Notes under the pieces: model-generated | What the model saw: only the letters and a program-made list of their open reading frames with translations | Database searches by the model: none | Told to the model about the DNA's origin: nothing | Translations under genes and position numbers: made by a program | Shown: one piece after another, positions 11,970 to 33,963 of the stretch | How the letters are laid out: each line of letters begins with the position of its first letter | How positions within the stretch are numbered: position 1 is the stretch's first letter | Source of the DNA: an uncultured Clostridiaceae bacterium | GTDB taxonomy: Bacteria; Bacillota; Clostridia; TANB77; CAG-465 | Assembly (NCBI GenBank): GCA_964593045.1 | Contig: CAZQJQ010000006.1 | Location: forward strand, 4,255-44,254 | Length of the DNA: 40,000 nucleotides | Direction of reading: 5' to 3'

Positions 11970-12491
11970 ATGTTTTTAGAGAGATTTTTTCCGACATACA
12001 TGTATAATAAAGTAGAAGATATTCCATTTGAATTACTTAAAAAACTAGATGTAAAAGCAATTTTATTTGATATGGATAATACTCTTATTGATTATAAATA
12101 TAAAATAAGTGATGAGTTAAAGATATGGATAAGTAATTTAAAAGAGAAAAAAATTGATATTATTATTTTAAGTAATACTTTTAGAATTGACAAGACTAAA
12201 GAAATTTCTAAAATACTTGATATACCATATATAATTAATGCAAACAAGCCATGGAGTTTTGGATTTAAAAAAGCAATTAATAGATTAAGTGTTGATAAGA
12301 AAAATAGTATAATGGTAGGAGATCAGATTTTTACTGATATTTATGGTGGAAATAGGTTTGGAATAAAAACGATATTAATTAATCCTGTAAATAAAAAAGA
12401 ATTGTTTTGGACTAGATTAAGAAGACCACTTGAAAGATTTGTTTTAAAAAAATACTATGAAAGGATAAAAGGTAAATTAGATGAAACTTGA
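11970..12491 (+). CDS. yqeG: YqeG-family HAD-IIIA phosphatase
   Basis: ILFDMDNTL motif I, ILSNT motif II, MVGDQIFTDI motif IV, about 170 aa. AGAGGTG SD upstream. Confidence 0.8.
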   Translation: MFLERFFPTYMYNKVEDIPFELLKKLDVKAILFDMDNTLIDYKYKISDELKIWISNLKEKKIDIIILSNTFRIDKTKEISKILDIPYIINANKPWSFGFKKAINRLSVDKKNSIMVGDQIFTDIYGGNRFGIKTILINPVNKKELFWTRLRRPLERFVLKKYYERIKGKLDET

Positions 12492-13218
12492 ATATATCAT
12501 TGCAACAATTATAGCTGTTATACTTGGACAAGTTGTATCACATTTAAATAAGAAACTACCTCCTGTTGTAAAGGAAGAAATAACATATAAAGAATTTTTT
12601 AGCACATTATTTAAAGATTTTAAAATAGATGTAATATATACAATAATATATATATCAGCATTTAATTTTTTAGTATATTATTTGAATTTTAGTTATATGT
12701 CATATACATATATGATTGTACTATTTGCACTTACAATTGTTGTATCTGTAGATATTCGTTTTCAGTTAATACCAGATGAGGTACATATAATACTTATACT
12801 TGTAGGTGTATTTAATTTTATAATAAATATAAATTCATGGTATATGTATATACTTGGAGCTATAGCAGGTGGGCTTGTGTTTTGGCTTTTAGGTCTCTTG
12901 TCAGTACTTATATTTAAAAAAGAAGGAATGGGATTTGGAGATGTAAAATTAATGGCTGCCTTAGGCTTTATATTTGGGCTTAAAGATATCTTAATAATAG
13001 CGTTAGTTTCGTTTTTTGTTGGTGCAATAGTAGGAGGGGCATTACTTATAACAAAAGTAAAAAAAATGGATAGCTATATACCATTTGGTCCTTTTATAGC
13101 AATTGCAACAATAATACTTATGATAGTACCAAGTAATAGTATAATATATGTTTATATATCATTTTGTACATGGCTCGGAAATGTTATGACTGACTTTATA
13201 TATAATATTATGAATTAG
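12481..13218 (+). CDS. A24-family prepilin (type IV leader) peptidase-like aspartic protease, no N-terminal Cys-rich/methyltransferase region seen
   Basis: Polytopic. The two A24 catalytic Asp contexts are SVDIRFQLIPDE and GFGDVKLMAALG. Overlaps yqeG by 11 nt. Confidence 0.7.
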   Translation: MKLEYIIATIIAVILGQVVSHLNKKLPPVVKEEITYKEFFSTLFKDFKIDVIYTIIYISAFNFLVYYLNFSYMSYTYMIVLFALTIVVSVDIRFQLIPDEVHIILILVGVFNFIININSWYMYILGAIAGGLVFWLLGLLSVLIFKKEGMGFGDVKLMAALGFIFGLKDILIIALVSFFVGAIVGGALLITKVKKMDSYIPFGPFIAIATIILMIVPSNSIIYVYISFCTWLGNVMTDFIYNIMN

Positions 13219-16359: not shown

Positions 16360-16707
16360 ATGATATATATAATTGGTTTTATAGTTGGTTTGTTAAATGG
16401 ATTATTTACTGCTGGTGCAGGTCAAATACTTGTTTTTTATTTTTTATATATTCTTAAAATTGAAGCACATTTATCAAGAAGTATAAGTGTAGCAATTTTA
16501 TCTGTTTCTTCACTTATAGCAATTTTTGGATATTCTAAATTTATTGATTTTGAGATAAAACAAGTTTTTTTAATAATTGTAATATCAATAATTACAGGTA
16601 TCATAGGTTCTAAACTTATGAAAAAAATAGAATCTAATATATTAAATTTATTATCTGGGGGAATAATAGTAGTACTTACACTAATTCAATTTTTTGTAAA
16701 AAGGTAG
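16360..16707 (+). CDS. Half-size (about 4-TM) TSUP/TauE-SafE-like membrane protein
   Basis: 115 aa. GxxxGxxxG / AGAGQ glycine-rich first helix typical of TSUP repeats. No clear SD, so the start is uncertain. Confidence 0.4.
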   Translation: MIYIIGFIVGLLNGLFTAGAGQILVFYFLYILKIEAHLSRSISVAILSVSSLIAIFGYSKFIDFEIKQVFLIIVISIITGIIGSKLMKKIESNILNLLSGGIIVVLTLIQFFVKR

Positions 16708-16722: not shown

Positions 16723-17109
16723 ATGAATACAATTATATATATTGTTATATTAATTATATCAGGAATAATTGCAGCAGCCGGTATTGGCGGAGGAAGTATA
16801 TATATTATGCTTTCTACTTTGCTTTTGTCAATGGAACAAAAACAAGCTCAAGGATATAACTTAATAATGTTTGTTGTTGTAGGGATTGCAGCAACAATAC
16901 AAAATATTTTAAGTAAAAATTTTGATAAAAAAATTTTTTTAAAACTTATCTTTTTTGTTATCATAGGATGTATTATTGGAATATATATAGCATATAAGAT
17001 TGATGAGGAAAATATTCGCAATTTTTTTTATATTTTTATGTTATTTATTGGTTTTTATGAAATAATTTCAAGTATAATAAATATAGTAAAGGCAAAAAAT
17101 AATAAGTGA
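16723..17109 (+). CDS. Half-size (about 4-TM) TSUP/TauE-SafE-like membrane protein
   Basis: 128 aa. AAAGIGGGSIYIMLS matches the TSUP GxGGG motif. Sits 15 nt after the previous half. Confidence 0.45.
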   Translation: MNTIIYIVILIISGIIAAAGIGGGSIYIMLSTLLLSMEQKQAQGYNLIMFVVVGIAATIQNILSKNFDKKIFLKLIFFVIIGCIIGIYIAYKIDEENIRNFFYIFMLFIGFYEIISSIINIVKAKNNK

Positions 17110-17123
17110 AAGGAGTTGATCTT

Positions 17124-17258
17124 ATGAATTTTGTTAAAGGAGCTATGCTTGGAATAGTTGCAGGAACAATAGTTGGAGTTATGAATAGTGAAACTATATC
17201 ATATGCTTTTAAAAAGGGAACAAAAACTTTTAAAAAATATGCAAAGCATATGAGATAA
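17124..17258 (+). CDS. Small membrane protein (44 aa), below the ORF-track cutoff
   Basis: AGGAG at 17111-17115, ATG 17124. Translation MNFVKGAMLGIVAGTIVGVMNSETISYAFKKGTKTFKKYAKHMR (one glycine-rich helix plus a basic tail). Confidence 0.35.
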   Translation: MNFVKGAMLGIVAGTIVGVMNSETISYAFKKGTKTFKKYAKHMR

Positions 17259-17285: not shown

Positions 17286-17330
17286 AGCTGCTATAAAATA
17301 TTAATTGATATTTTATTTGGCAGCCTTTTT
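17286..17330 (+). terminator. Intrinsic terminator separating the sigK-side genes from the 17.4-kb cluster
   Basis: AGCTGCTATAAAATA (17286-17300) pairs imperfectly with TATTTTATTTGGCAGC (about 17309-17324), then TTTTT. Confidence 0.5.
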
Positions 17331-17445
17331 ATTAAATAAAACGAATAAAAAAGAAATTTACAGATATTGTTATATACCTATTGCTATTTTTATACTTATA
17401 TAGTAAAATATTATATATTAGATGTAAATAAAAGAGGAGATAATT

Positions 17446-17766
17446 ATGGTATATAAAAAATCAACAATAATATCAATAATAGTCGCAATATGTGCATGTT
17501 TAATTTCAAATGTAGTTTTTGCTGCAACAGATGTTGTATCAAATGATAAGATATTTGATACAGGAATGCAAGTTTTAATATTTATACAGAAATATTCATG
17601 GCCAGTTGTTACACTTGTATTTATATATGCTTTATATAAATTTTATGTTGCTGGTTCAGAGCTTTTAGAACAAAAAATTTCTGGTCAAAAACTTATTGTT
17701 GGTATTGCAATATTTATGGCACTTGTTCAAACAATGCCATTAATATATGCGTTTTTTATAATATAA
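17446..17766 (+). CDS. Exported small membrane protein, TrbC/VirB2-like architecture (signal peptide plus two TM helices)
   Basis: Sec signal ending VVFA/AT, then two hydrophobic helices separated by a short polar loop (AGSELLEQKISGQK). 106 aa. AGAGGAG SD. Confidence 0.4.
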   Translation: MVYKKSTIISIIVAICACLISNVVFAATDVVSNDKIFDTGMQVLIFIQKYSWPVVTLVFIYALYKFYVAGSELLEQKISGQKLIVGIAIFMALVQTMPLIYAFFII

Positions 17767-17794
17767 CATATTATTTAAGAAGAGGTGAAATAAA

Positions 17795-19558
17795 GTGAAA
17801 GTATTATTTGGTATAAATAATGATGATACAGTAAAAGGTATAATAGAGTTTTACGAAGCAAAATTTAATGAAAAAATAGAGTATAAGAATGTATATTATT
17901 TTAAGCAATTATGTACAGAACTTGCAACTGGTGAATATAATAGAGCTGTTGTATTAGAAGAATTAGAAAAATATCCAACTAATAATTATGCACAAATAGA
18001 TGAATATTTGTTTAAAAATATAGATGCAATGACTGATTCTTTTGATTCAAAAGATATCGTATATATAGCATCAGATAGAAGAAAGTTAGGGGATCCTTTT
18101 TTAACAAAATTGTTTAATCTTGGAATATATACTGTACTTACCGGACAAGATAGAACAAAAGGAAAAGTATGTAATGGCATACATTCTCCTTTCTTAAAAA
18201 AAGATGTTAAAAAATATTATGATAAAGAGGCAGTATCTGAAAATGTGTACAATGAAGATGAAGTTTCTGAGATAGAGATACAAAGAATAGTATCATATTA
18301 CAAGAATCAAAATGGTGTAGCAGATAAATATAATGAAATTTTTGATAGGGTTTCATCACAGTATACAGATGAACAATTAAAGGTAATTGTAAATTTTTTT
18401 CCTGATGATGTTAAGCAATATTTATCTTTTAATAACGAAAAGTATAAACAAATTGCAAGTATGGCTGGTGTTGTAACACCACCTATGCAAAGTCCAATGG
18501 TCGAAGAAACACAGGAAAAAGAAGTATTGTCTAATTTACATGATGCAAATGCAGTTAAAATACAAAAAGAGCCAGAAATGGCAGAGAGAATTGTAGTTAG
18601 ACCTCAACCTTCTCCTAATATAACTGCTCCGGTAGTAACAGAGGTTATGGAAAAAGAAGTTGTTAGATCTGTATATGAAGTTCCAAAAGACTATAAAAAA
18701 GTAGTATGTCTTGTTGGTGCTCCAAAAGTTGGAACTACTTTTTGTATTAATGCAATAGGAACATTTTTAACAAGACATAAGGTTAAAACCGCAATAGTAG
18801 ATGTAACAAGAAAAAGAGATACATTTACGATGTATACTTATGATAATGAAGGTAAAAGAGCAATAGCAGCCGAGAGTATAAAATATGCATCAAATGGATT
18901 AAATGAACCTCTTGTATATGAGAAATTGAGCGTATATACAGCAATGCCTGGAGAAGATAGAAGAACTTATAATGCAAATAAAATAATTGAAACAGTAATG
19001 CAAAATAACACTGTAGTTTTAGTAGATGCAGATTTCACTACACCTCCTGATTTTTTTAGGTTATGCCAAAATATATATATTGTTCAAGATATGGATATTA
19101 TAAATCTTCAACAAGTAACAATGTTTATACGTGAGTTGAAATCTCGTGGGGTTCCAATGAATAAAATAAAACTAATAGTAAATAAGCATGTAAAATGTGC
19201 TCTTACAACAAGACACATTATTGATGGAATAGTAACATATACTAGTTATGATCTTAAGATGTATACTGACTTGCTTTCTGCTAGTTCATTAGAAACATAT
19301 GTAATTCCTTTTGATCAAGAAAATTATAGGAAATATGTTGAAATGGTATATAAATACTCAAATCAATTCAATACATTTACAGAAGATTTTAAAAAAGCAA
19401 TAGGTAATCTTATAAACGATATATATCCAATAGGCACATTAACTAGTACATCTACTAGAATAAATAATAAAAAAAATAATGCCTTTAAACCTAAAAAACC
19501 AATAAATATGCCATATAGTGAAATGAGTGATGATGGATACGAAAAAGAAACTAGATAG
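17795..19558 (+). CDS. TadZ/CpaE-like protein: N-terminal pseudo-receiver domain, long linker, C-terminal MinD/ParA-fold domain with an atypical P-loop
   Basis: GTG start after AGAGGTGA. KVLFGINNDD...AVVLEELE has a receiver-like layout without the phospho-Asp. VVCLVGAPKVGTTF is a P-loop lacking the GK[ST] lysine. VVLVDADF is a Walker B. Confidence 0.5.
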   Translation: MKVLFGINNDDTVKGIIEFYEAKFNEKIEYKNVYYFKQLCTELATGEYNRAVVLEELEKYPTNNYAQIDEYLFKNIDAMTDSFDSKDIVYIASDRRKLGDPFLTKLFNLGIYTVLTGQDRTKGKVCNGIHSPFLKKDVKKYYDKEAVSENVYNEDEVSEIEIQRIVSYYKNQNGVADKYNEIFDRVSSQYTDEQLKVIVNFFPDDVKQYLSFNNEKYKQIASMAGVVTPPMQSPMVEETQEKEVLSNLHDANAVKIQKEPEMAERIVVRPQPSPNITAPVVTEVMEKEVVRSVYEVPKDYKKVVCLVGAPKVGTTFCINAIGTFLTRHKVKTAIVDVTRKRDTFTMYTYDNEGKRAIAAESIKYASNGLNEPLVYEKLSVYTAMPGEDRRTYNANKIIETVMQNNTVVLVDADFTTPPDFFRLCQNIYIVQDMDIINLQQVTMFIRELKSRGVPMNKIKLIVNKHVKCALTTRHIIDGIVTYTSYDLKMYTDLLSASSLETYVIPFDQENYRKYVEMVYKYSNQFNTFTEDFKKAIGNLINDIYPIGTLTSTSTRINNKKNNAFKPKKPINMPYSEMSDDGYEKETR

Positions 19559-19573
19559 AGGTGAAAATAATAG

Positions 19574-20647
19574 ATGGAAGTTTTTTTAGGAATATTGTTA
19601 GTAGTTATAACGGTATTACTTCTAGTTCTTGGAATTATTTATTTAGCACAAAAGAAAAAATTAAGATATTATGAAACAATATCTCAAAATATATCTGCTA
19701 TGAAAGTAATACAGAGTATGTTTGAAATATTAAGTGCAAATATTAGTTCAAAAAAGAAGTTTGAAGAATTAAACCAGATAATAATAGGATCATATTCTCC
19801 TAAGTATTCTACCATCTCTATATTTGATGGAAATTCTTATGAGATAAAAGCTTCAAATGTGGAAAGTACATATTTAGAAGTAATAGGACAGATAGCTGAA
19901 GAAAATGATTTTAGAAACAATACAATAAAAAATATATCAAAATATTTAACAACTACACGTGAGAAGCCACTTTCATATAAGTCTGCTGTAGAAAGAGGAA
20001 TACGTTCATGTATGTTTTCACCAATATTTCATAATGGAATGTATTTAGGTTTTTGGTTATTAGAAGATGATAAAGAAAATGCATTTGACTATATATCAAA
20101 AAGTGAACTTTCAAAATTAAAAAACAATTTAGGAGTATTTGTTGAAAATACAATATATCAAAATATGATAGAAAATGCAGAAAACAAGGATAAACAAACT
20201 GGATTATATAATAATCTATATTTATATTCTAATGTAAGAAATGTGTTGGAAAAGAATGAAGAGAGTTCATTTGTAATGTTTGTACTTGATAATATTCCTG
20301 AAATTAATGAAAAATATGGAAGAAACTTTGGAAACAAATTATTAATAAAGACTCTTAGTGTTATAAAAGAAATGGCAGATAAAGATTCTATACATATAAG
20401 ATATAGTGGTATTAGATTTATAAGTATTTTTACTGGGAAAGATGCTCAGACTATTTATCCAGTAGTAGAAAATATATTAAAAAGTATATTAAACCAAATA
20501 GAATATTTTGATAGTGAGCAAGTAAAAGTTAATGTAAAAGTACTTATACATACATTTAAAAAGCAAAATAATGTAGAAAAAGAAGTTCAAAAAATGGTAA
20601 AATATATGGATTCAATGCAAGATATAAATGTTATAAAAATTATATAG
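19574..20647 (+). CDS. Membrane-anchored GAF-like / degenerate GGDEF domain protein
   Basis: N-terminal TM helix. GAF-like SCMFSPIFHNGMYLGFWLLED. The GGDEF-domain alignment gives DKQTGLYNNLY, FVLDNIPEINEKYGRNFGN and RYSGIRF in place of RYGG(D/E)EF. Confidence 0.6.
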   Translation: MEVFLGILLVVITVLLLVLGIIYLAQKKKLRYYETISQNISAMKVIQSMFEILSANISSKKKFEELNQIIIGSYSPKYSTISIFDGNSYEIKASNVESTYLEVIGQIAEENDFRNNTIKNISKYLTTTREKPLSYKSAVERGIRSCMFSPIFHNGMYLGFWLLEDDKENAFDYISKSELSKLKNNLGVFVENTIYQNMIENAENKDKQTGLYNNLYLYSNVRNVLEKNEESSFVMFVLDNIPEINEKYGRNFGNKLLIKTLSVIKEMADKDSIHIRYSGIRFISIFTGKDAQTIYPVVENILKSILNQIEYFDSEQVKVNVKVLIHTFKKQNNVEKEVQKMVKYMDSMQDINVIKII

Positions 20648-20661: not shown

Positions 20662-20907
20662 ATGGATCAACATACAACAGTTTTTAGTCCACAAAAGGAT
20701 GAATCAAAAAGAGTAAAAGAGATTATGGATCAAGTAGTTAGTGCTTTAAAAGATAAAGGGTATGAACCAGTAAGTCAAATTATAGGATATATTTTATCAG
20801 GGGATCCTACATATATAACATCTCATCAAAATGCAAGAGCACTTATATGTAAAATTGAAAGAGATGATTTATTAGAAGAAATGATAAAAAAATATTTAGA
20901 TGTATAA
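20662..20907 (+). CDS. ireB: IreB-family regulatory phosphoprotein (UPF0297/DUF965)
   Basis: 81 aa. VSALKDKGYEPVSQIIGYILSGDPTYITSHQNAR is highly family-typical. Conserved position upstream of ruvX. Confidence 0.85.
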   Translation: MDQHTTVFSPQKDESKRVKEIMDQVVSALKDKGYEPVSQIIGYILSGDPTYITSHQNARALICKIERDDLLEEMIKKYLDV

Positions 20908-20918
20908 TAGGAAATAAT

Positions 20919-21344
20919 ATGGGAAGAATATTAGCAATTGATTATGGAGATGTAAGAGTTGGTTTGGCTGTATCTGATGAATTAGGGATAACGGCTCAGT
21001 CACTTGATACTCTTGTTATAAACAAAAGTGACAAAGCTTTTTTAAAAGCAATAAAAGAAATACAAAAAGAATATAATATATCTAAGATTGTAATTGGATA
21101 TCCTAAGAATATGGATGGAACAAAATCTTTAAAAACAGATAAGATTGATACCCTTATACCCTTAATACAAGATAATAACAATATAGAAGTAATTAGATGG
21201 GATGAAAGACTTACTACGGTTTCTGCGTATAGAACAATGAGGGAATTAAACATATCTCAAAAAAATAAAAATAAAGTTGCAGATAGACTTGCTGCTACAT
21301 ATATATTAGAAGGATATTTAAATATGATAAGAAATCAAAAATAG
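20919..21344 (+). CDS. ruvX: Putative pre-16S rRNA nuclease / Holliday junction resolvase-like YqgF
   Basis: ILAIDYGDVRVGLAVSD N-terminus, ERLTT motif, 141 aa. Confidence 0.9.
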   Translation: MGRILAIDYGDVRVGLAVSDELGITAQSLDTLVINKSDKAFLKAIKEIQKEYNISKIVIGYPKNMDGTKSLKTDKIDTLIPLIQDNNNIEVIRWDERLTTVSAYRTMRELNISQKNKNKVADRLAATYILEGYLNMIRNQK

Positions 21345-21395
21345 TATATACAAATTAAAATAAATATTGTATAATTAAAACAAGGAGGAAATAAT

Positions 21396-21776
21396 ATGAA
21401 AGAAGAAAAAATAGGTGGATGTAATCCATCAGGATGTGCAGGATGCTCAGGATGCTCATCATATGAAGAAGAATTGGATTTTGATCCAACTATAACATTA
21501 ACTGATGAAAAAGGTGTTGATGTTAAATTTGAAATATTAGATGTTGTTGTATTAGAAGATGAAAGACAATTTTTAGTTGTTTCTGAAGTAGAACAAGAAG
21601 AAAACGAAGAAGGCATAGAAGTTTTAATTTTAGAAATAAAAGAAGAAGATGGTGAAGAAGTTTATGATACAGTAATAGATAAAGAACTTGCAGAGAAAGT
21701 TTTTGCATTATTTCAAAAACAACAAGAAAATATACAAAAAAGTATACAAGATCTTGAAGAAGATGTGGAAAAATAA
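21396..21776 (+). CDS. DUF1292 (UPF0473) family protein with a Cys-rich N-terminal extension
   Basis: ITLTDEKGVDVKFEILDVVVLEDERQFLVV core. N-terminal GGCNPSGCAGCSGCS. Usual ireB-ruvX-DUF1292 synteny. Confidence 0.75.
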   Translation: MKEEKIGGCNPSGCAGCSGCSSYEEELDFDPTITLTDEKGVDVKFEILDVVVLEDERQFLVVSEVEQEENEEGIEVLILEIKEEDGEEVYDTVIDKELAEKVFALFQKQQENIQKSIQDLEEDVEK

Positions 21777-21887: not shown

Positions 21888-22382
21888 TTAGTTTTCAACA
21901 TTTTCAACATATGTATTTGCAGGAGCAGTAACTTTTGTAATACTTCCAACTTTAAGAACTGGCATATCGCCATTATAGTTTCCTTTTAATATAATTCCAG
22001 TTACTTCTATCCATTCGTTATCTGCAAGCTTACTTGCATCAGTACTTTGACATAATATTCCACTGATACTTTCTTCATTGTTAATAATAATATTTCTTCC
22101 CACCACAAAATAATCTTCTTTAAAATCCGGCATTCTAAATACAAATCCGGTGATTTTAACAGTCTTATTTACATTAGCATCAATATTTTCATGAATTGTT
22201 TTAAGAAGACTAGTATAGTTACCATCTTCAAATATATAATCATATTTATCAATACTTTTTGCAACATTTAAAGTTTCATTTTGACTATATCCAAATTCAA
22301 CTGCTATTGCTATTATAGCAGCAAGGATTAAACATACAATAAATATTTTTTTAAAATCGAGCTTAAAATTAACTACAAACAT
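21888..22382 (-). CDS. Membrane-anchored protein homologous to the C-terminal (DUF1980) domain of TIGR03943/YcgQ-type proteins
   Basis: N-terminal TM helix. KTVKITGFVF..DYFVVGRN...NEWIEVTGIILKG aligns with QTIRVRGFAL..GYFAIGKY...DKWYEVEGILEKG of the island protein at 32919-33779. Confidence 0.5.
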   Translation of the reverse strand: MFVVNFKLDFKKIFIVCLILAAIIAIAVEFGYSQNETLNVAKSIDKYDYIFEDGNYTSLLKTIHENIDANVNKTVKITGFVFRMPDFKEDYFVVGRNIIINNEESISGILCQSTDASKLADNEWIEVTGIILKGNYNGDMPVLKVGSITKVTAPANTYVENVEN

Positions 22383-25412: not shown

Positions 25413-25428
25413 CTGAAAATAGCAAAAT

Positions 25429-25523
25429 GTTTGCAATTTGTTTGCAAACAAAAAAATTTGAAAACAAAATCGTCGAAAAGCCTTGTAAAATAAGGAAATC
25501 TCTATGCAAACATTTTTGCAAAC
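25429..25523. repeat. Phased GTTTGC / GCAAAC hexamer array (candidate arm-type or regulator binding sites)
   Basis: GTTTGC at 25429 and 25440 (11-nt phase; the second forms the perfect palindrome GTTTGCAAAC, 25440-25449). Inverted GCAAAC at 25506 and 25518 (12-nt phase). Confidence 0.45.
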
Positions 25524-25529
25524 AATATA

Positions 25530-25556
25530 AAGTTGGCATTCGTGCCAACTTTTTCA
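25530..25556 (+). terminator. Intrinsic terminator between secA and int
   Basis: AAGTTGGCA (25530-25538), loop TTCG, TGCCAACTT (25543-25551), then TTTTC. Confidence 0.7.
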
Positions 25557-25588
25557 TTTACTCAAATGTAAATGGAGGAGAGATTATT

Positions 25589-26902
25589 ATGGCTGATGTA
25601 ACAGTTCAAAAAAGAGGAGAAGTATATCAATATAAATTTGAAATTGCTTCAATCGATGGAAAAAGAAAATTTAAAAATAAGTCAGGATTCGCAACAAAAA
25701 GCGAAGCAAAACAAGCAGGTATTATTGCATACAATGAGTATTTGAATACTGGACATAGTTTTAAACCTAAAACAATGTCATATTCTGATTATCTAGATTA
25801 CTGGATTGATACTTATTGTAATTTTAATCTTAAATATTCAACTATAATTACATATCTTAATATTATTAAACTTTATTTAAAACCAAGACTTGGTAGATAT
25901 GCACTATGGCAAATTGATTCTCAAATGCTACAAGAATTTATTAATAAGATATATATAGAGAAAAGTTTATCTAAATGGTATTTAAAAAATATAATGAAAG
26001 TAGTTAAAGGTTCATTAAGATATGCATGTTATTCAGTTAATTTTATTAATGAAAATCCAGCTGAAAAAGTACATATTCCTAGATATGAAGTAGTATGTGG
26101 AGATCCAGCACATATATTTACTCAAGAAGAAATTGAAAAGATATTAGATAGATTTAAAGATGTTCCTTATATCTATTATTCGTTTTTAACAGCATATTAC
26201 ACAGGAATGAGAGTATCAGAAGTATATGGATTAACTTGGGATAATATTGATTTTGATAAAAAAACTATAAATATTAATAAGAATATTATTAAAAAAAATA
26301 AATATGGATTACCTAAAAGATATTGCATAACTAAAGGTCATTCAGTAGAAGTATGGAGTTATGGAACTTGTAAGAATCCTCAAAGTCAAAGAACAATTAA
26401 TATAGGAGATACATTAGTTAAAGCATTAAAAGATTATAAGAAACTACAACAAGAAAATAGAGAATACTATGGAGAATCATATTTAAAACATTATGAAAAA
26501 AGAATAATGAATGAATATACAAATAGACCTGAAATTAAAATAGTAGATGCTAAAGCTGAAATAAAAGTAGATCTGCCAGAAGCTAAACTTGTATTTGTAA
26601 GAGCAAATGGAGATTTTAGAGGAACTGAATCACCTAGACATGCATTTAAAGTTATTAATTATGAATTAGGAATACCTTGTAGATTCCATGACTTTAGAGA
26701 TACACATGCAACTAGATTAATAGAACAAGGTGCTGATATAAAAGCAGTATCTAAAAGACTAGGACATTCAACAATAATGACTACTTATAATATTTATGTA
26801 AGAGTAACAAACAAAATGGAAACTGAAACGGTTAGTAAATTTGAGGATTATGCCAATACTTTAGATATACCACCAGTACAAGATATTGAATATCAAGATT
26901 AG
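25589..26902 (+). CDS. int: Tyrosine recombinase / site-specific integrase with N-terminal arm-type DNA-binding domain
   Basis: GGAGGAG SD at 25574-25580 precedes ATG 25589. VQKRGEVYQYKFEIASIDGKRKFKNKSGFATKSEA N-domain. Catalytic YTGMRVSE (R), FHDFR (HxxR), LGH, Y at +10. Confidence 0.9.
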   Translation: MADVTVQKRGEVYQYKFEIASIDGKRKFKNKSGFATKSEAKQAGIIAYNEYLNTGHSFKPKTMSYSDYLDYWIDTYCNFNLKYSTIITYLNIIKLYLKPRLGRYALWQIDSQMLQEFINKIYIEKSLSKWYLKNIMKVVKGSLRYACYSVNFINENPAEKVHIPRYEVVCGDPAHIFTQEEIEKILDRFKDVPYIYYSFLTAYYTGMRVSEVYGLTWDNIDFDKKTININKNIIKKNKYGLPKRYCITKGHSVEVWSYGTCKNPQSQRTINIGDTLVKALKDYKKLQQENREYYGESYLKHYEKRIMNEYTNRPEIKIVDAKAEIKVDLPEAKLVFVRANGDFRGTESPRHAFKVINYELGIPCRFHDFRDTHATRLIEQGADIKAVSKRLGHSTIMTTYNIYVRVTNKMETETVSKFEDYANTLDIPPVQDIEYQD

Positions 26903-26921
26903 TCATTCCCTAAATAAGGAA

Positions 26922-26949
26922 TTGACAAATTTTTAAAAAGTGATAATAT
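26922..26949 (+). promoter_or_regulatory. Strong sigma-A-type promoter for the leader/regulator transcript
   Basis: TTGACA (26922-26927), 16-nt spacer, extended -10 TGaTAATAT (TG 26941-26942, TAATAT 26944-26949). Confidence 0.6.
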
Positions 26950-26994
26950 ATATAACCAATGAAAGAGGTATTCTCTAGAAATGGAGGTACAGCT

Positions 26995-27060
26995 ATGAAA
27001 AAACAATCGAAATTAATAAATTCTTATATTGAATTATTTAGAGGTGTCGGTAGTATTTAA
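26995..27060 (+). CDS. Candidate 21-aa leader peptide (MKKQSKLINSYIELFRGVGSI)
   Basis: GGAGG at 26983-26987, 7 nt before ATG 26995. The last six codons lie inside the 5' arm of the terminator at 27042-27089. Confidence 0.45.
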   Translation: MKKQSKLINSYIELFRGVGSI

Positions 27061-27089
27061 ACACTTTAATACTATTGACACCTTTTTTT
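27042..27089 (+). terminator. Strong intrinsic terminator / attenuator in the 5' leader of the ArpU-like gene
   Basis: 16-bp stem: AGGTGTCGGTAGTATT (27042-27057) pairs with AATACTATTGACACCT (27068-27083), including two G-U pairs. 10-nt loop, then TTTTTT (27084-27089). Confidence 0.75.
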
Positions 27090-27116
27090 GTAGTATTTAG
27101 AAGTAAGGGTGGTAGA

Positions 27117-27749
27117 ATGATTAAAGTAGAAAATGGTAAGTTACAAGCTGAATTATTGGATAATAGAGGAACATTATCTGATAAAATTATTGAACAATAT
27201 GATTATATTGAATTAAAGAATGACTTCGCTGAAATAGTAGATATTTTATCAACGAATATGTTAGTTCATGCTATGTATGAAGAAGCATTAAAATATGAAA
27301 TAACTGAAGATTTGGAATTTAAAATATTTATTGATCCAAATATAAAAGATTATACTATGTGTTATGATTTAGCAACAGAATATTCATATTTATCAGCTAC
27401 TGATACATCAATAATTACATTAGATAGAAAGACTTATGATAAATCGTTAGAATTATGCATGAATCTCTTAAAAAAGGTCAAAAAATCATATGAAAAATTA
27501 AATGAAGTAGAAAAATTTATTATTAAATCGTTAGAATTCGATAATCCACCTGAAACAGATGAAGAATTAATGGATAGATTAATGACATATAAAAATGGAT
27601 ATTATTTATCAAAGAAAAGCGCATATATTAAAATGGCAATGCAGTTAAATATAAAGAATGTTAAAAAAAGAGAATCAGATGATTATTTAAAAAGAGTATT
27701 GGCAGATAAATATATAGAGGTTGTTTTTAATAATGAAAAGAGAACATAA
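27117..27749 (+). CDS. Hypothetical protein with a C-terminal ArpU / sigma-70 region-4-like HTH (putative element transcription regulator)
   Basis: LNEVEKFIIKSLEFDNPPETDEELMDRLMTYKNGYYLSKKSAYIKMAMQL follows the ArpU-type pattern (L.e.E..II....td.e....YY..KksA..K.A..L). ATG 27117 follows AAGGGTGG. The N-terminal 135 aa have no recognisable motif. Confidence 0.4.
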   Translation: MIKVENGKLQAELLDNRGTLSDKIIEQYDYIELKNDFAEIVDILSTNMLVHAMYEEALKYEITEDLEFKIFIDPNIKDYTMCYDLATEYSYLSATDTSIITLDRKTYDKSLELCMNLLKKVKKSYEKLNEVEKFIIKSLEFDNPPETDEELMDRLMTYKNGYYLSKKSAYIKMAMQLNIKNVKKRESDDYLKRVLADKYIEVVFNNEKRT

Positions 27750-27802
27750 AATATCAATAATATGTTCTTTTTCTATAAATTGAAGTTTTCAGACTTTAAA
27801 TA

Positions 27803-27817
27803 ATATTCCGAACTCTC
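27803..27817 (-). repeat. Inverted partial copy of the border repeat
   Basis: The reverse complement reads GAGAGTTCGGAATAT. This equals the 28575 copy (AGAGTTCGGAA-ACTTTTGA-TATT) with the central 8 nt missing. It overlaps the -35 position of the CPBP gene promoter (TGaTATAAT, 27834-27842). Confidence 0.5.
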
Positions 27818-27862
27818 TAATTATAAGAATCTATGATATAATGGTTAATAGGAGTTGATAGT

Positions 27863-28576
27863 ATGAATAATAAATTAAAGTATTTATTACCAATTCGTTC
27901 AATAATGTTTATACTTATATTTGTTATAGGATCATTAATTGTAAATAAGAATATAAGTGATATTAGTAATTGGTGGAGTATAGTAGCGACTATAGTTAAT
28001 CTAATAACTATTTTATTGTTAGTTTTAATAACTAAGAAAATGAATATTAGTTATTCTAAATTAATAAATTATGAAAAAGGAAAAACAAAAATTAAAAATA
28101 CAATTATTATATCCTTAGTTGTTTTGTTTGTTGGAACAATTGGAATGTATTTAGCTGGTTTTATTTGTTATGGAAAGTTTCCATATGCTGCACCTATGAT
28201 GATTGCACCAATACCACTTATACTTGCGATAATTAATTTTGTCCTTTTACCTTTAACAGTATCATTTGCAGAAGACGGATTATATTTAGGTTGTGGAGTT
28301 AATAGTTTTAAAAATAAGTATATGGCTATATTAATACCTGCATTCTTTTATGCTATTCAACATAGTTTTATACCAACACTATTTGATGGTAAATATATAA
28401 TATATAGATTCTTATCATTTTTACCATTAACAATAATTTTATGTTGGTATTATCATAAACATAAAAATCCAGTTCCTATTATGATAGGTCATGCTCTTAT
28501 AGAAGTAGCAAGTGTAGTTATGATATTAATGACTTCAATAAGCCTTGAATTATATCAAACAATGTTGAATATGTAG
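27863..28576 (+). CDS. Polytopic membrane protein, CPBP (CAAX protease/bacteriocin-processing, Abi-type) family-like
   Basis: Multiple TM helices (not counted precisely). FAEDGLYLG (variant of the EExxxR motif), FFYAIQH (FxxxH), IGHALIE (Hxxx[N/E]). AGGAG SD. Confidence 0.45.
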   Translation: MNNKLKYLLPIRSIMFILIFVIGSLIVNKNISDISNWWSIVATIVNLITILLLVLITKKMNISYSKLINYEKGKTKIKNTIIISLVVLFVGTIGMYLAGFICYGKFPYAAPMMIAPIPLILAIINFVLLPLTVSFAEDGLYLGCGVNSFKNKYMAILIPAFFYAIQHSFIPTLFDGKYIIYRFLSFLPLTIILCWYYHKHKNPVPIMIGHALIEVASVVMILMTSISLELYQTMLNM

Positions 28577-28653
28577 AGTTCGGAAACTTTTGATATTCCG
28601 TTCACAATATGGATATATTAGGAACAAATCAGAATTAAAAATTCTGGTTTTTT
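28575..28653 (+). repeat. Copy 2 of the island border repeat, including a small hairpin and a terminator
   Basis: AGAGTTCGGAAACTTTTGATATTCCGTTCACAATATGG...CAGAATTAAAAATTCTGGTTTTTT is alignable over about 85 nt with 33780-33865. It starts inside the CPBP stop codon. Confidence 0.6.
28630..28653 (+). terminator. Intrinsic terminator after the CPBP gene
   Basis: CAGAATT (28630-28636), loop AAA, AATTCTG (28640-28646), then GTTTTTT. Confidence 0.65.
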
Positions 28654-28654
28654 A

Positions 28655-28683
28655 TTGAAATAATTTAAAATTAAATGTATAAT
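28655..28683 (+). promoter_or_regulatory. Sigma-A-type promoter of the zur-znu module
   Basis: TTGAAA (28655-28660), 17-nt spacer, TATAAT (28678-28683). Confidence 0.6.
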
Positions 28684-28689
28684 TGAATA

Positions 28690-28704
28690 TGAAAATCATT
28701 TTCA
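28690..28704. promoter_or_regulatory. Perfect 7-1-7 Fur-family operator (candidate Zur box)
   Basis: TGAAAATcATTTTCA is a perfect palindrome starting 7 nt after the -10 hexamer, 20 nt upstream of the Fur-family gene start. Confidence 0.65.
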
Positions 28705-28723
28705 AATTGAAAAGGATGATTGT

Positions 28724-29125
28724 ATGGCAAGAAGTGAATCTTACAATACAAAACAAAAAGATATTATACTTAATGCTATTAAGAAACGAGAACAAGAATT
28801 TACAATTAAGGATTTATATAATGAAATAAAAGATATAACTGGTTTAACTACTATTTATAGACTGGTGGATAAACTTGTAGAAGATGGTAGATTGAGTAAG
28901 TCAATTGGCAAAGATAATACAACATACTATCAATATTTAGAAGAATGTGATGAAGATAATCACTTTTATCTTAAATGTGATAATTGTGGTAATATGGTTC
29001 ATGTTGATTGTGAATGTATAGAAGATTTGTCGAGTCATATATTTAAAAAACATAAATTTATGCCAAATAAAGAACATATAATTATTAATGGAGTTTGTGA
29101 AAAATGTATTAAGAAAGGAAAATAA
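28724..29125 (+). CDS. zur: Fur-family metalloregulator, Zur-like by context
   Basis: Winged-helix LTTIYRLVDKLVEDGRLSK. NHFYLKCDNCGNMVHVDC and VCEKC give the two CxxC pairs of the structural Zn site. Directly upstream of znuABC-type genes. Confidence 0.7.
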   Translation: MARSESYNTKQKDIILNAIKKREQEFTIKDLYNEIKDITGLTTIYRLVDKLVEDGRLSKSIGKDNTTYYQYLEECDEDNHFYLKCDNCGNMVHVDCECIEDLSSHIFKKHKFMPNKEHIIINGVCEKCIKKGK

Positions 29126-29127
29126 TT

Positions 29128-29427
29128 ATGATAAAAGCAAAAAATATAACAAAAATTATTGCTATTATTTTATTAGTATCTATGATACTTCGTTTTTGTT
29201 TTGTCATAATACACTTAAATCATGATTGTACTCATGATGATAATTGTCCTATTTGTGCATTGATTCACAAATTTAAAGATGATTTAAATGGGTTTGATCC
29301 AAACTTAGCTAAAGTAGTAATTGCTATTTTATTAATATTTCCTCCAGTAGCAACTTACTTAAGCAATAAAATTAGAGATAAAAAGAAAGATACACTTGTA
29401 GGGTTAAAGGTTGAGTTAATAAATTAA
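29128..29427 (+). CDS. Small two-TM membrane protein with a Cys/His-rich loop (HLNHDCTHDDNCPICALIH)
   Basis: ATG lies 2 nt after the zur stop, with AAAGGA SD inside zur. TM1 is roughly residues 9-29, TM2 roughly 61-78. Basic N- and C-termini suggest the Cys/His loop faces outward. Confidence 0.6.
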   Translation: MIKAKNITKIIAIILLVSMILRFCFVIIHLNHDCTHDDNCPICALIHKFKDDLNGFDPNLAKVVIAILLIFPPVATYLSNKIRDKKKDTLVGLKVELIN

Positions 29428-29429
29428 TA

Positions 29430-29464
29430 CCATCTTTAAAGCATAAACAAAATTTTAAAGATGG
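29430..29464 (+). promoter_or_regulatory. Perfect 11-bp inverted repeat whose 3' arm overlaps the znuA Shine-Dalgarno
   Basis: CCATCTTTAAA (29430-29440) pairs with TTTAAAGATGG (29454-29464), 13-nt loop. The GGAGG SD is 29463-29467. No T-run follows. Confidence 0.5.
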
Positions 29465-29473
29465 AGGAAGCAA

Positions 29474-33779: not shown

Positions 33780-33865
33780 AGAGTTTGTAATCTTTTGATA
33801 TTACGATTTGTTCGCAATAGGTTGCTAATGCGCAAACATGACAGACTAAAAAGTCTGTTTTTTTG
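33780..33865 (+). repeat. Copy 3 of the island border repeat, including a small hairpin and a terminator
   Basis: AGAGTTTGTAATCTTTTGATATTACGATTTGTTCGCAATAGG...GCGCAAACATG ACAGACTAAAAAGTCTGTTTTTTT starts immediately after the TAA stop at 33777-33779. Confidence 0.6.
33841..33865 (+). terminator. Intrinsic terminator after the zinc module
   Basis: ACAGACT (33841-33847), loop AAAA, AGTCTGT (33852-33858), then TTTTTTT. Confidence 0.7.
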
Positions 33866-33867
33866 TG

Positions 33868-33913
33868 TAGGAAAAATTTAGGAAAAATGAATATAGTTTT
33901 CTAGGATAAAAAT
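33868..33913 (+). repeat. Iteron-like direct repeats upstream of the HTH/Rep-like gene
   Basis: TAGGAAAAATt (33868-33878) and TAGGAAAAATg (33879-33889) are in tandem. A degenerate third copy TAGGATAAAAAT lies at 33902-33913. Confidence 0.5.
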
Positions 33914-33963
33914 AGAGAATTTTTTGACATGTTTTAAATAATCAATATTCGAGATAATGATAT

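What the first reader, a model, noticed from the sequence alone, without database searches (positions are those of the whole stretch)
17446..20647. Orphan three-gene cluster built from signalling/positioning domains whose catalytic motifs are all degenerate
A separate transcription unit sits between a terminator (17286-17330) and the conserved ireB-ruvX-DUF1292 block, with no pilus, secretion or flagellar genes nearby. Gene (a) is a 106-aa signal-peptide/two-TM protein with VirB2/TrbC-like architecture. Gene (b) is a 587-aa protein with a receiver-like N-domain lacking the phospho-acceptor context (AVVLEELE). It also has a roughly 170-aa P/E/V-rich linker and a MinD/ParA-fold domain. That domain's P-loop (GAPKVGTT) lacks the GK[ST] lysine yet keeps a Walker B (VVLVDADF), which is the TadZ/CpaE pattern of atypical receiver plus atypical ATPase. 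Gene (c) is a TM-GAF-GGDEF protein in which GG(D/E)EF is SGIRF and GH..GD is GRNFGN, and I see no RxxD I-site upstream. It is therefore unlikely to make c-di-GMP and is not an obvious I-site receptor. Three co-transcribed pseudo-enzyme scaffolds suggest a membrane-associated localisation or signalling hub, since TadZ proteins are polar landmarks, acting on an unknown small exported subunit. The location just downstream of sigK hints at a sporulation or cell-pole link, though I saw no sporulation-type promoter.
Basis: partly seen in the sequence, partly recalled or inferred. Interest (0 to 1): 0.65.

Follow-up and report, generated by a model that had tools for sequence, protein, structure and literature searches.

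The report
TadZ-like scaffold with membrane partners
Three real, strongly conserved genes encode an exported membrane protein, a TadZ-like positioning protein that lacks the usual ATP-binding lysine, and a catalytically dead GGDEF protein; they head an operon with housekeeping genes, relatives of the first two sit inside complete Tad-type pilus loci, and what the module positions is still unknown.

Summary
The three ORFs and every quoted motif are at the stated coordinates.

**What the proteins are**
- B has no Pfam or NCBIfam match. An AlphaFold model (pLDDT 84) shows a receiver-fold domain, a helical subdomain, a disordered linker of about 75 aa and a MinD/ParA fold. Foldseek hits include TadZ (3FKQ) across both domains.
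- The Walker lysine of B is replaced by Thr314. The pocket residues are still near-invariant across a family with more than 400 clusters at 50% identity, so the pocket is probably used rather than decayed.
- C is a GGDEF domain without GG(D/E)EF, the metal-binding Asp residues or an RxxD I-site.
- The GAF call for C and the VirB2/TrbC call for A have no profile support.

**Context**
- A-B-C-ireB-ruvX-DUF1292 is syntenic in about 55 species-level genomes.
- Gene gaps are 11-51 bp, and a sigma-A-type promoter upstream of A is conserved. The trio is therefore probably not a separate transcription unit.
- C is missing in two lineages, so A-B is the core.
- Distant A and B homologues lie in complete Tad-like loci, including on Clostridium botulinum and C. 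beijerinckii plasmids.
- Most B homologues carry two AT-hooks; this window's B has none.

**Verdict:** an uncharacterised variant of TadZ/BcsQ-type scaffolds, with an unknown client.

The parts
17287..17333 (+). Intrinsic-terminator-like hairpin plus U-tract that ends the upstream TauE/small-protein unit
   Evidence: RNA fold -14.9 kcal/mol, z = -3.0, followed by CUUUUUAUU.
17381..17409 (+). Conserved sigma-A-type promoter: -35 TTGCTA at 17381-17386, 17-nt spacer, -10 TAAAAT at 17404-17409, preceded by TATxG
   Evidence: TTGxTATT and TATxGTAAAAT are invariant in 10 of 10 aligned species, within an otherwise 41%-identical intergenic region. The pattern scan also lists it.
17446..17766 (+). Gene A: 106-aa exported membrane protein with a signal peptide (likely cleavage VFA/A after residue 26), two hydrophobic helices and a conserved short cytoplasmic loop (GSExLEHKxxGQR)
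   Evidence: ORF; hydropathy. There are 119 homologues, all without a Pfam domain. A lies upstream of B in 57 of 57 loci. An HMM of A hits the 142/213-aa proteins upstream of distant B genes (E about 3e-8) and, weakly, the C-terminal half of the 236-aa 4-TM proteins in Tad-type loci (E about 4e-4 in a small database).
17795..18190 (+). Gene B, residues 1-132: receiver-fold (beta-alpha)5 domain with invariant Glu55 where the phospho-acceptor Asp would be
   Evidence: AF2 pLDDT above 90 with E/H topology. Foldseek aligns both domains to TadZ 3FKQ. E55 is invariant, including in Tad-type homologues. No sequence-level hit to receiver proteins.
18197..18463 (+). Gene B, residues 135-223: six-helix subdomain of unknown role
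   Evidence: AF2 helices H135-223, pLDDT about 90.
18464..18694 (+). Gene B, residues 224-300: disordered V/E/P-rich linker. It has no AT-hook here, although most of the wider family has two in this position.
   Evidence: pLDDT 35-58. Composition V 18%, E 14%, P 12%. AT-hook matched in 23 of 52 members by Pfam. RGRP motif in 73 of 108 representatives, 0 of 120 in this clade.
18695..19429 (+). Gene B, residues 301-545: MinD/ParA-fold domain with P-loop GAPKVGTT (nt 18716-18739), Thr314 at the Walker-lysine position, and conserved D336, D411 and D413
   Evidence: Foldseek top hits are ParA 3ea0, MinD 4v02/3q9l, FlhG and BcsQ 6yb5, with target-normalised TM-score (TMt) 0.6-0.73. The HMM aligns to FtsY GFNGSGKTT. 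The Tad-type homologue P0350 keeps GFSGAGKTS. Conservation. CbiA matched in 18 of 52 members.
19430..19558 (+). Gene B C-terminal tail: basic stretch (NNKKNNAFKPKK) and clade-specific YEKE[TV][KR] end. In homologues this is a GGLFKK or FSxxMNxTLNKMKKxY amphipathic motif, a possible membrane-targeting sequence.
   Evidence: Alignment A1; tail classes. The hydrophobic moment is comparable with the E. coli MinD C-terminal motif (sequence entered from memory), but weaker in the window's own tail.
19574..20647 (+). Gene C: N-terminal TM helix (residues about 4-26), conserved cytoplasmic domain of about 170 aa with unassigned fold (residues 30-198), and a degenerate GGDEF domain (residues 205-342; SGIRF at nt 20405-20419)
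   Evidence: Pfam GGDEF 2.3e-13. The family-wide motif is RYSGx[KR][FL]. Alignment to active cyclases. No GAF support. Absent in L030 and L067.
20662..21776 (+). ireB (20662-20907), ruvX (20919-21344) and DUF1292 (21396-21776): invariant downstream neighbours, probably co-transcribed
   Evidence: Pfam IreB 6.5e-36, RuvX 3.2e-40, DUF1292 1e-7. Gaps of 14, 11 and 51 bp. No terminator between C and ireB. Synteny holds in all evaluable loci, down to B homologues of 29-37% identity.

Best explanation
A and B, usually with C, form a vertically inherited, constitutively expressed membrane-associated scaffolding module. It is related to an accessory gene pair of Tad-type pilus loci.

**B, the organiser**
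- Its MinD/ParA domain has Thr at the Walker-lysine position but an otherwise conserved nucleotide pocket.
- It most likely binds ATP and forms a long-lived sandwich dimer with little hydrolysis, as BcsQ and TadZ do.
- Its receiver-fold domain carries a fixed Glu at the acceptor position and cannot be phosphorylated on Asp. It probably serves as a protein-docking surface.

**A and C, the membrane partners**
- A is the conserved membrane partner. It probably tethers B through its short cytoplasmic loop, helped by B's basic C-terminal tail.
- C is a membrane-anchored, non-catalytic GGDEF adaptor that is frequent but dispensable.

**The client**
The complex would recruit or position a client that is not encoded in the operon.

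**Shown:** gene reality, folds, motif states, synteny, promoter conservation and homology to genes in Tad loci.
**Inferred:** ATP-dependent dimerisation, A-B and B-C contacts, and the scaffolding role.
**Unknown:** the client. Candidates are a distal type IV/Tad filament or cell-envelope machinery linked to IreB.
For: - **Fold of B:** receiver fold plus MinD/ParA fold, with TadZ 3FKQ aligned over both domains (3FKQ is TadZ according to PMC10499894).
- **Pocket conservation:** G308, K311, G313, D336, D411 and D413 are kept across 52 diverse sequences.
- **Precedent for a lysine-less pocket:** BcsQ has the same K-to-T change and crystallises as ATP-bound sandwich dimers with weak ATPase activity (PMC7840130). 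TadZ keeps ATP binding and ATPase activity without the lysines (PMC6668835, PMC10482377).
- **A-B is the core:** A is next to B in 57 of 57 loci, and the pair persists where C is lost.
- **Link to Tad loci:** A-like and B-like genes are adjacent in Tad-like loci from metagenomes and on Clostridium plasmids.
- **C is non-catalytic:** it lacks every catalytic and I-site residue in 31 of 31 homologues.
- **Expression:** conserved sigma-A-type promoter and tight gene spacing.
Against: - No interaction, nucleotide-binding or localisation data exist.
- B matches no TadZ/CpaE or ParA Pfam model above threshold, and its P-loop differs from the TadZ consensus K/RGGxGxS/T.
- The window's own C-terminal tail is a weak membrane-targeting candidate: it contains prolines and has a lower hydrophobic moment.
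- The homology between A and the 4-TM proteins of Tad loci is weak (E about 4e-4 in a tiny database).
- The client is unidentified, so 'positioning hub' remains a class assignment rather than a function.
- In Tad-type loci a second ParA-like gene occupies the canonical tadZ slot. B-like proteins may therefore do something other than what TadZ does.
Confidence: 0.5

Rival explanations
1. B is simply the TadZ-type localisation factor, and A an accessory membrane component, of a Tad or other type IV filament machine encoded elsewhere in the same genome. The module is a detached part of a pilus system.
For: B homologues at 27-30% identity over their full length sit in complete Tad-like loci. These contain a SAF/RcpC CpaB-like gene, a ParA-like gene, a T2SSE ATPase and a T2SSF platform gene. 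The same arrangement is found on C. botulinum and C. beijerinckii plasmids. A catalytically intact prepilin peptidase lies 4.2 kb upstream in the window.
Against: No Tad gene occurs in the window or within 6-10 kb of the module in more than 60 loci. The fixed neighbour is ireB-ruvX, even at 29-37% B identity. Tad-type loci already carry a second ParA-like gene in the tadZ position. Chromosomal B proteins have tails and AT-hooks that the Tad-type ones lack.
Confidence: 0.2
2. The B family is a nucleoid-to-membrane tether or DNA-positioning ParA-like protein. AT-hooks in the linker hold AT-rich DNA while the C-terminal amphipathic helix and partner A hold the membrane.
For: Pfam AT_hook is matched in 23 of 52 members (best E 4e-5). 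RGRP motifs occur in 73 of 108 full-length representatives, 63 of them with exactly two GRP tripeptides. Examples come from loci with the same A-B-C-ireB context. The family has a ParA/MinD fold. A conserved C-terminal amphipathic motif is present in 51 of 108 representatives.
Against: The window's B, and all 120 close relatives listed, have no AT-hook. No ParB or parS-like partner is evident. DNA binding is untested.
Confidence: 0.12
3. The module is a c-di-GMP (or other cyclic nucleotide) signalling unit in which C synthesises or senses the messenger and B is the effector.
For: C has a significant GGDEF domain. The guanine-contacting Asn (N245) is kept, and the partner Asp is Asn254. In Tad-type loci the ParA-like neighbour ends in an MshEN-like motif.
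Against: GG(D/E)EF is SGx[KR][FL], both DxD aspartates and the FK lysine are lost, and RxxD is DKDS, in 31 of 31 homologues. C is dispensable in two lineages. No c-di-GMP riboswitch is found.
Confidence: 0.08
4. The genes are a decaying remnant of a pilus or secretion locus and have no current function.
For: Motifs are degenerate in all three proteins, and complete loci exist in relatives.
Against: B is 57-71% identical across about 57 species, with hundreds of invariant columns. Reading frames are intact, the promoter is conserved, and the family has more than 400 clusters at 50% identity.
Confidence: 0.02

Closest known systems
TadZ / CpaE (Tad pilus localisation factor; structure 3FKQ from Eubacterium rectale)
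   Same: Both have a two-domain plan: an atypical receiver domain without a phospho-acceptor Asp, plus a MinD/ParA-fold domain with a lysine-less P-loop. Foldseek aligns both domains. B homologues are encoded in Tad-like loci.
   Different: - No Pfam or PDB sequence match.
- The P-loop is GxxKxGT[ST], not K/RGGxGxS/T.
- B has an extra helical subdomain of about 90 aa and a linker of 75 to more than 800 aa between the domains.
- The gene lies next to ireB-ruvX, not tadA.
- In Tad-like loci a different ParA-like gene occupies the tadZ slot.
BcsQ with BcsE and BcsF (enterobacterial cellulose secretion regulators)
   Same: The composition is similar. A MinD-like protein has the cis Walker lysine replaced by Thr, yet binds ATP as a sandwich dimer (PMC7840130). 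It works with a degenerate REC-GGDEF protein and a small membrane protein that recruits the complex. BcsQ is among the Foldseek hits (6yb5).
   Different: - No cellulose synthase or other Bcs genes are nearby.
- The receiver-like domain is fused to the MinD-like protein rather than to the GGDEF protein.
- BcsE binds c-di-GMP through an I-site, which C lacks.
- No sequence-level relationship was shown.
MinD / FlhG / ParA positioning ATPases
   Same: Same fold (TMt about 0.7), conserved switch and Walker B aspartates, and in many homologues a C-terminal amphipathic basic tail like the MinD membrane-targeting sequence.
   Different: - Both the signature and the canonical Walker A lysines are absent.
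- No MinC/MinE, ParB or FlhF partner genes are present.
- B has an extra N-terminal receiver-like module.
Membrane-anchored degenerate GGDEF receptors of Firmicutes (B. subtilis YdaK, Listeria PssE; recalled from general knowledge, not tested here)
   Same: A TM anchor plus a non-catalytic GGDEF domain, encoded beside the machinery it regulates.
   Different: Those proteins keep the RxxD I-site and bind c-di-GMP, and they sit in exopolysaccharide operons. C has no I-site and no glycosyltransferase neighbours.
VirB2/TrbC type IV secretion pilins
   Same: Signal peptide followed by a two-helix hydrophobic hairpin of about 80 aa.
   Different: No profile match for A or any of 119 homologues. The relatives of A lie in Tad-type, not VirB-type, loci, and as 4-TM duplicated forms.

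Membership tests
TadZ/CpaE | N-terminal atypical receiver domain lacking the phospho-acceptor Asp | tested here: met
   AF2 (beta-alpha)5 topology at pLDDT above 90, with Glu55 at the end of beta3. The Foldseek alignment to 3FKQ spans both domains. This holds at fold level only; there is no sequence hit.
TadZ/CpaE | C-terminal MinD/ParA-fold atypical ATPase domain | tested here: met
   Foldseek probability 1.0, TMt 0.6-0.73 to ParA, MinD, FlhG and BcsQ.
TadZ/CpaE | Walker-A-like motif K/RGGxGxS/T (consensus quoted in bioRxiv 10.64898/2026.07.08.737194) | tested here: not met
   B has GAPKVGTT and the family consensus is GxxKxGT[ST]F. There is no K/R six residues before the Ser/Thr.
TadZ/CpaE | Encoded in a tad locus next to tadA/cpaF | tested here: not met
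   No Tad gene lies in the window or in the flanks of 57 related loci. The feature is met only for distant homologues.
TadZ/CpaE | Sequence-profile membership (Pfam/NCBIfam/PDB) | tested here: not met
   B has no Pfam or NCBIfam hit. Only weak CbiA (18 of 52) and MipZ (5 of 52) hits appear in family members. phmmer against PDB finds nothing.
TadZ/CpaE | Polar localisation and recruitment of pilus components | not testable with these tools
   Requires microscopy and genetics.
MinD/ParA deviant-Walker-A ATPases | Signature and canonical lysines, KGGxxGK[ST] | tested here: not met
   The canonical Lys is Thr314. There is no signature Lys at x1; a conserved Lys311 sits at x3.
MinD/ParA deviant-Walker-A ATPases | Switch I and Walker B aspartates | tested here: met
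   D336 is invariant; D411 and D413 are at least 90% conserved across 52 diverse sequences.
MinD/ParA deviant-Walker-A ATPases | C-terminal amphipathic membrane-targeting helix (MinD/FlhG subgroup) | tested here: inconclusive
   Amphipathic basic motifs are present in most homologues (51 + 11 of 108). The window's own tail is proline-containing and weaker.
GGDEF diguanylate cyclase | GGDEF-domain profile match | tested here: met
   Pfam 2.3e-13 and TIGR00254 2.6e-12, both above cut-off.
GGDEF diguanylate cyclase | GG(D/E)EF active-site loop and metal-binding Asp residues | tested here: not met
   SGIRF in the window and SGx[KR][FL] in 31 of 31 homologues. The DxD positions are Leu or variable.
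GGDEF I-site c-di-GMP receptors | RxxD motif five residues upstream of the GG(D/E)EF position | tested here: not met
   Aligned against the DosC RSSD motif, the window has DKDS and the Arg column is variable.
GAF domain (claimed for C residues about 30-198) | Profile match to GAF families or GAF structures | tested here: not met
   No GAF Pfam hit in 31 of 31 members at E up to 1. A profile of the region against PDB returns only a chance dynein light chain hit.
VirB2/TrbC pilins (claimed for A) | Profile match to TrbC or T4SS pilin families | tested here: not met
   No Pfam family at E up to 1. None of 119 homologues has a Pfam domain.
CheY-like receiver domains | Phospho-acceptor Asp at the end of beta3 | tested here: not met
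   Glu55 is invariant at that position in 20 of 20 sequences, Tad-type included.
Anti-phage defence systems | Match to PADLOC models | tested here: not met
   No hit for A, B or C.

The most novel reading that the evidence does not exclude
The B family, with partner A, is a previously unrecognised cell-organising system of uncultured low-GC Firmicutes. It would be a lysine-less MinD/ParA protein that bridges the AT-rich nucleoid and the membrane. The nucleoid link would be the two AT-hooks found in most members. The membrane link would be a C-terminal amphipathic helix plus the exported partner A. The system would have been exapted from, or donated to, Tad-type pilus loci, and it is operonically coupled to the peptidoglycan-regulating phosphoprotein IreB. 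In this reading it would link envelope growth or division to chromosome position. This window would represent a hook-less derivative.
Probability: 0.15. Interest if true: 0.8.

Novelty: new variant of a known kind. Interest (0 to 1): 0.55.

Why it matters
ParA/MinD proteins are the main spatial organisers of bacterial cells, and each new branch has revealed a new cargo. This is a large family, with more than 400 clusters at 50% identity, no Pfam or NCBIfam model and no name. It combines an unusual but conserved P-loop, a TadZ-like receiver module and, in most members, AT-hooks. It is fixed beside ireB-ruvX in gut and environmental Clostridia that have never been cultured. The same gene pair also sits in Tad-like loci on plasmids of cultured Clostridium botulinum and C. 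beijerinckii, which gives an experimental entry point. Working out the client would say how these reduced-genome anaerobes organise their envelope or filaments. It would also show how pilus-positioning parts are recycled for other jobs.

Tried and rejected
**Searches that gave nothing**
- Pfam and NCBIfam on A and B found nothing useful.
- phmmer of B and of the Tad-type homologue P0350 against PDB found nothing.
- A GAF test for C through Pfam on all 31 homologues, and a domain-only profile against PDB, gave no support.
- An N-domain profile against PDB returned only designed helical-repeat proteins, which is a composition artefact.
- No riboswitch or other RNA family was found in the window or in the leader of A, and there are no tRNAs.
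- PADLOC found no defence-system match.
- Cluster look-up for organism names of distant homologues returned none.
- Literature searches for an AT-hook MinD/ParA protein, or for a MinD plus degenerate-GGDEF module in Clostridia, found no description.
- A search for att-like direct repeats around the integrase region found only paralogous coding repeats.

**Attempts that failed for technical reasons**
- The first AF2 run, on a shallow alignment at about 67% identity, gave pLDDT 56 and was discarded.
- The TadZ structure paper (PMC3272108) is not held.

**Explanations rejected**
- A sporulation link through sigK: the synteny is not conserved and the promoter is sigma-A-like.
- A mobile-element origin: flanks are housekeeping genes, composition is uniform and inheritance is vertical.
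- A decayed remnant: the conservation is too strong.

Full report
**1. Observation**

The window is about 26% G+C, with uniform composition around the finding. Both A and B have strong ribosome-binding sites. All quoted strings are present at the following positions:
- AVVLEELE at B residue 51
- GAPKVGTT at B residue 308
- VVLVDADF at B residue 407
- SGIRF at C residue 278
- GRNFGN at C residue 249

The upstream hairpin at 17287-17324 plus a U-tract is a credible terminator (-14.9 kcal/mol, z = -3.0).

Upstream lie sigK, two half-size TauE genes and a 50-aa ORF. Downstream lie ireB, ruvX and DUF1292.

**2. These are real, conserved genes**

- B has more than 1190 homologues in the 90%-clustered collection. 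All are unnamed and none has a Pfam domain.
- An exhaustive HMMER search of the 50%-clustered library finds 403 clusters at E up to 1e-3 and 183 at E up to 1e-30.
- A genome scan returned 58 loci. All come from uncultured Clostridia MAGs or 'Clostridium sp. CAG:1219/465/921'.
- tblastn of the window's proteins against these loci shows the order A-B-C-ireB-ruvX-DUF1292 in essentially all of them. A is present in 57 of 57. C is present in all evaluable loci except L030. B identity is 57-71%.
- Upstream neighbours vary: TauE genes, pyruvate formate-lyase and its activase, a hydroxyacid dehydrogenase, SpoIID. sigK lies within 6 kb in only three loci.

**3. Transcription**

Gene gaps are as follows:

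| Pair | Gap (bp) |
|---|---|
| A-B | 28 |
| B-C | 15 |
| C-ireB | 14 |
| ireB-ruvX | 11 |
| ruvX-DUF1292 | 51 |

No credible terminator lies between C and ireB. A convergent gene follows DUF1292.

Ten orthologous leaders of A were aligned. Against a 41%-identical background, TTGxTATT and TATxGTAAAAT are invariant. In the window this gives a -35 TTGCTA at 17381-17386 and a -10 TAAAAT at 17404-17409, with a 17-nt spacer.

This is a housekeeping sigma-A-type promoter. The most economical reading is a six-gene operon, not a separate three-gene unit, and not a sporulation-specific one. No Rfam family matches the leader.

**4. Protein B**

*Sequence searches.* These give nothing.

*Structure model.* A first AF2 model on a shallow alignment was poor (pLDDT 56). 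With 52 diverse family members the model reached pLDDT 84, with both domains above 90. The parts are:

| Residues | Feature |
|---|---|
| 1-130 | (beta-alpha)5 receiver fold |
| 135-223 | Six-helix subdomain |
| 225-300 | Disordered V/E/P-rich linker, about 75 aa rather than about 170 |
| 301-545 | MinD/ParA fold |
| 546-587 | Disordered tail |

*Fold search.* Foldseek against PDB gives ParA (3ea0), MinD (4v02, 3q9l), FlhG, FleN, Soj and BcsQ (6yb5) at TMt 0.6-0.73. Rank 4 is 3FKQ, aligned over 564 columns covering both domains. 3FKQ is TadZ of Eubacterium rectale (PMC10499894).

*Nucleotide pocket.*
- The family P-loop consensus is G-x-x-K-x-G-T-[ST]-F.
- Its spacing equals GxxxxGK[ST], with Thr314 at the lysine position. 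The profile aligns to FtsY GFNGSGKTT. One Tad-type homologue still has GFSGAGKTS, while others have GAGTTS or QSGVTT.
- G308, G313 and D336 are invariant. K311, D411 and D413 are at least 90% conserved across sequences with 23% mean column identity.
- This is the signature of a used pocket, not a decayed one.
- There are precedents. BcsQ has the same K-to-T change, crystallises as ATP sandwich dimers and hydrolyses weakly (PMC7840130). TadZ retains ATP binding and ATPase activity without the lysines (PMC6668835, PMC10482377).
- B nevertheless fails the TadZ Walker-like consensus K/RGGxGxS/T and all sequence-profile tests. Only weak CbiA and MipZ hits appear in some members.

*Receiver-like domain.* Glu55 is invariant at the acceptor position, including in Tad-type homologues. 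No sequence match to receiver proteins was obtained.

**5. Unexpected features of the B family**

- Pfam AT_hook is matched in 23 of 52 members.
- RGRP motifs occur in 73 of 108 full-length representatives, and 63 have exactly two GRP tripeptides. An example is KRGRGRPRK, found twice in P0306.
- The window's B and all 120 close relatives have none.
- C-terminal tails fall into classes. One is a conserved FSxxMNxTLNKMKKxY motif (51 of 108). One is basic GGLFKK-type ends (11 of 108). Acidic tails occur in the Tad-type proteins.
- The first two classes have helical hydrophobic moments similar to the E. coli MinD membrane-targeting sequence, which I entered from memory. The window's own tail is weaker.

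**6. Protein C**

- The GGDEF domain is significant.
- Profile alignment to active cyclases (a Rec-GGDEF protein 6zxb, and DosC 4zve) puts RYSGx[KR][FL] on R[FY]GG[DE]EF. It puts Leu or variable residues on the DxD aspartates, Pro on the FK lysine, Arg250 on His, Asn254 on the GD aspartate, and DKDS on the RxxD I-site.
- The pattern holds in 31 of 31 homologues.
- The guanine-contacting Asn (N245) is kept, so residual nucleotide binding cannot be excluded.
- The conserved region at residues 30-198 looks GAF-like by eye but has no Pfam or PDB profile support. I leave it unassigned.
- C is absent in L030 and in L067 (B 52% identical), where A-B abuts ireB directly. A-B is therefore the core and C is an accessory.

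**7. Protein A**

- A has a signal peptide (likely cleavage after VFA at residue 26), two hydrophobic helices and a highly conserved short loop, GSExLEHKxxGQR.
- It has 119 homologues and none has a Pfam domain. The VirB2/TrbC idea rests on architecture only.

**8. Relatives in other contexts**

- Contigs encoding B homologues at 29-37% identity show the same module. The order is one or two small membrane proteins, B, a degenerate GGDEF gene, ireB, ruvX and DUF1292 (L059, L061, L064, L065/66, L068).
- Homologues at 27-30% identity, aligned over the full length with E about 1e-41 to 1e-44, lie in a different setting (L060, L062, L063). The gene order there is:
  - a 150-aa protein
  - a 236-aa signal-peptide 4-TM protein
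  - the B-like gene
  - a SAF/RcpC CpaB-like gene
  - a ParA-like gene of 315 aa
  - a T2SSE ATPase, with best NCBIfam match to the TadA family
  - a T2SSF platform gene
  - a second platform-like gene
  - small pilin-like and TadE-like ORFs

  This is a complete Tad-like locus.
- An HMM of A hits the A-like proteins of L059 and L061 (E about 3e-8). It also hits, weakly, the C-terminal hairpin of the 4-TM proteins (E about 4e-4 in a tiny database).
- The same Tad-like arrangement, including the 4-TM protein and the B-like gene, occurs on plasmids of cultured clostridia. These are C. botulinum p12/29 (NZ_KT897275.1, WP_017826339.1) and related plasmids, and C. beijerinckii CloBei18h p1 (NZ_CP107023.1, WP_264647532.1). 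There the locus sits beside large cell-wall hydrolases.
- No Tad component is detectable in the window or in any chromosomal-module locus.
- The window does encode a prepilin peptidase with both catalytic Asp motifs at 12481-13218.

**9. Interpretation**

The best-supported model is a membrane-associated scaffold built on the A-B pair.
- B dimerises on ATP with slow turnover.
- It is held at the membrane by A and by its own tail.
- It presents a locked receiver-like surface to a client.
- C is an optional non-catalytic adaptor.

The compositional parallel with BcsQ, BcsE and BcsF is striking: a K-to-T MinD-like protein, a degenerate REC-GGDEF protein and a small membrane recruiter. It remains an analogy only.

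The client is unknown. There are two candidates:
- a type IV or Tad filament encoded elsewhere in the genome
- envelope machinery, suggested by the invariant coupling to ireB. In Enterococcus and Listeria, IreB is a PASTA-kinase substrate that controls peptidoglycan synthesis; this is general knowledge and was not tested here. Peptidoglycan hydrolase genes lying next to the module in some lineages point the same way.

The AT-hook finding raises a more novel reading, a nucleoid-membrane tether. It does not apply directly to this hook-less clade.

**10. Verdict**

The finding is real and interesting but not categorically new. It is an uncharacterised, widespread variant of the TadZ/BcsQ class of lysine-less MinD/ParA scaffolds, in a new architecture and genomic setting.
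- linker length
- operon extent
- the GAF and VirB2 calls
- 'pseudo-enzyme' for B
- the sporulation hint
- the trio as the unit

Noticed in passing
window 12481-13218 (+): A Peptidase_A24 prepilin peptidase (245 aa) with both catalytic motifs (DIRFQLIPD, GFGDVK) and no N-terminal methyltransferase-type domain detected. It implies that type IV pilin-like substrates are encoded somewhere in this genome.
   Followed up: partly
window 16360-16707 and 16723-17109 (+): Two adjacent half-size TauE/SafE genes (115 and 128 aa). Each matches the same C-terminal half of the Pfam model (positions 130-237). A 50-aa hydrophobic ORF at 17106-17258 follows. The set is conserved in many related loci, which suggests a heterodimeric half-transporter.
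   Followed up: partly
window 25427-37202: Two paralogous tyrosine integrases (25427-26902 and 34741-36021) and a Mob_Pre relaxase (36018-37202) bracket a Fur-family regulator, a ZnuA/ABC/ABC-3 zinc uptake set, an ArsP-like permease and a DUF1980 gene. This looks like a mobile-element insertion downstream of secA. No att-like direct repeats and no tRNA were found.
   Followed up: partly
L063:4090-5037 (also L062:4220-5170): The ParA-like protein in the tadZ slot of the Tad-type loci ends in a motif (KLGEILLSNGFITKEQLEMAL). It aligns with the N-terminal MshEN/GSPII repeats of the PilB/PilF ATPases. From general knowledge, this motif type can bind c-di-GMP.
   Followed up: no
L024:8213-11276: In one MAG, a 3.8-kb insertion between B and C carries a DUF218 gene, an Amidase_6/CHAP gene and a Cna_B surface-protein gene. 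These cell-envelope genes are inserted inside the module.
   Followed up: partly
L069 (C. botulinum p12/29, NZ_KT897275.1 16550-41947) and L070 (C. beijerinckii NZ_CP107023.1): Large plasmids typed 'non-mobilizable' carry an unannotated Tad-like locus. It contains a 4-TM protein, the B-like gene, a SAF protein, a ParA-like gene, a T2SS/T4P/T4SS ATPase, a 669-aa platform-like protein, a 137-aa pilin-like protein and a cell-wall hydrolase. In the C. botulinum plasmid it lies next to a 1927-aa amidase. This may be a pilus or transfer apparatus.
   Followed up: partly
L059:18-1214 and L061:6035-7270: In distant lineages, a G5 + glucosaminidase peptidoglycan hydrolase gene sits immediately upstream of the A-like gene of the module.
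   Followed up: no
window 21888-22382 (-) and 32919-33779 (+): Two DUF1980 C-terminal-domain genes lie in one 40-kb window. One of them is paired with the ArsP-like permease.
   Followed up: no
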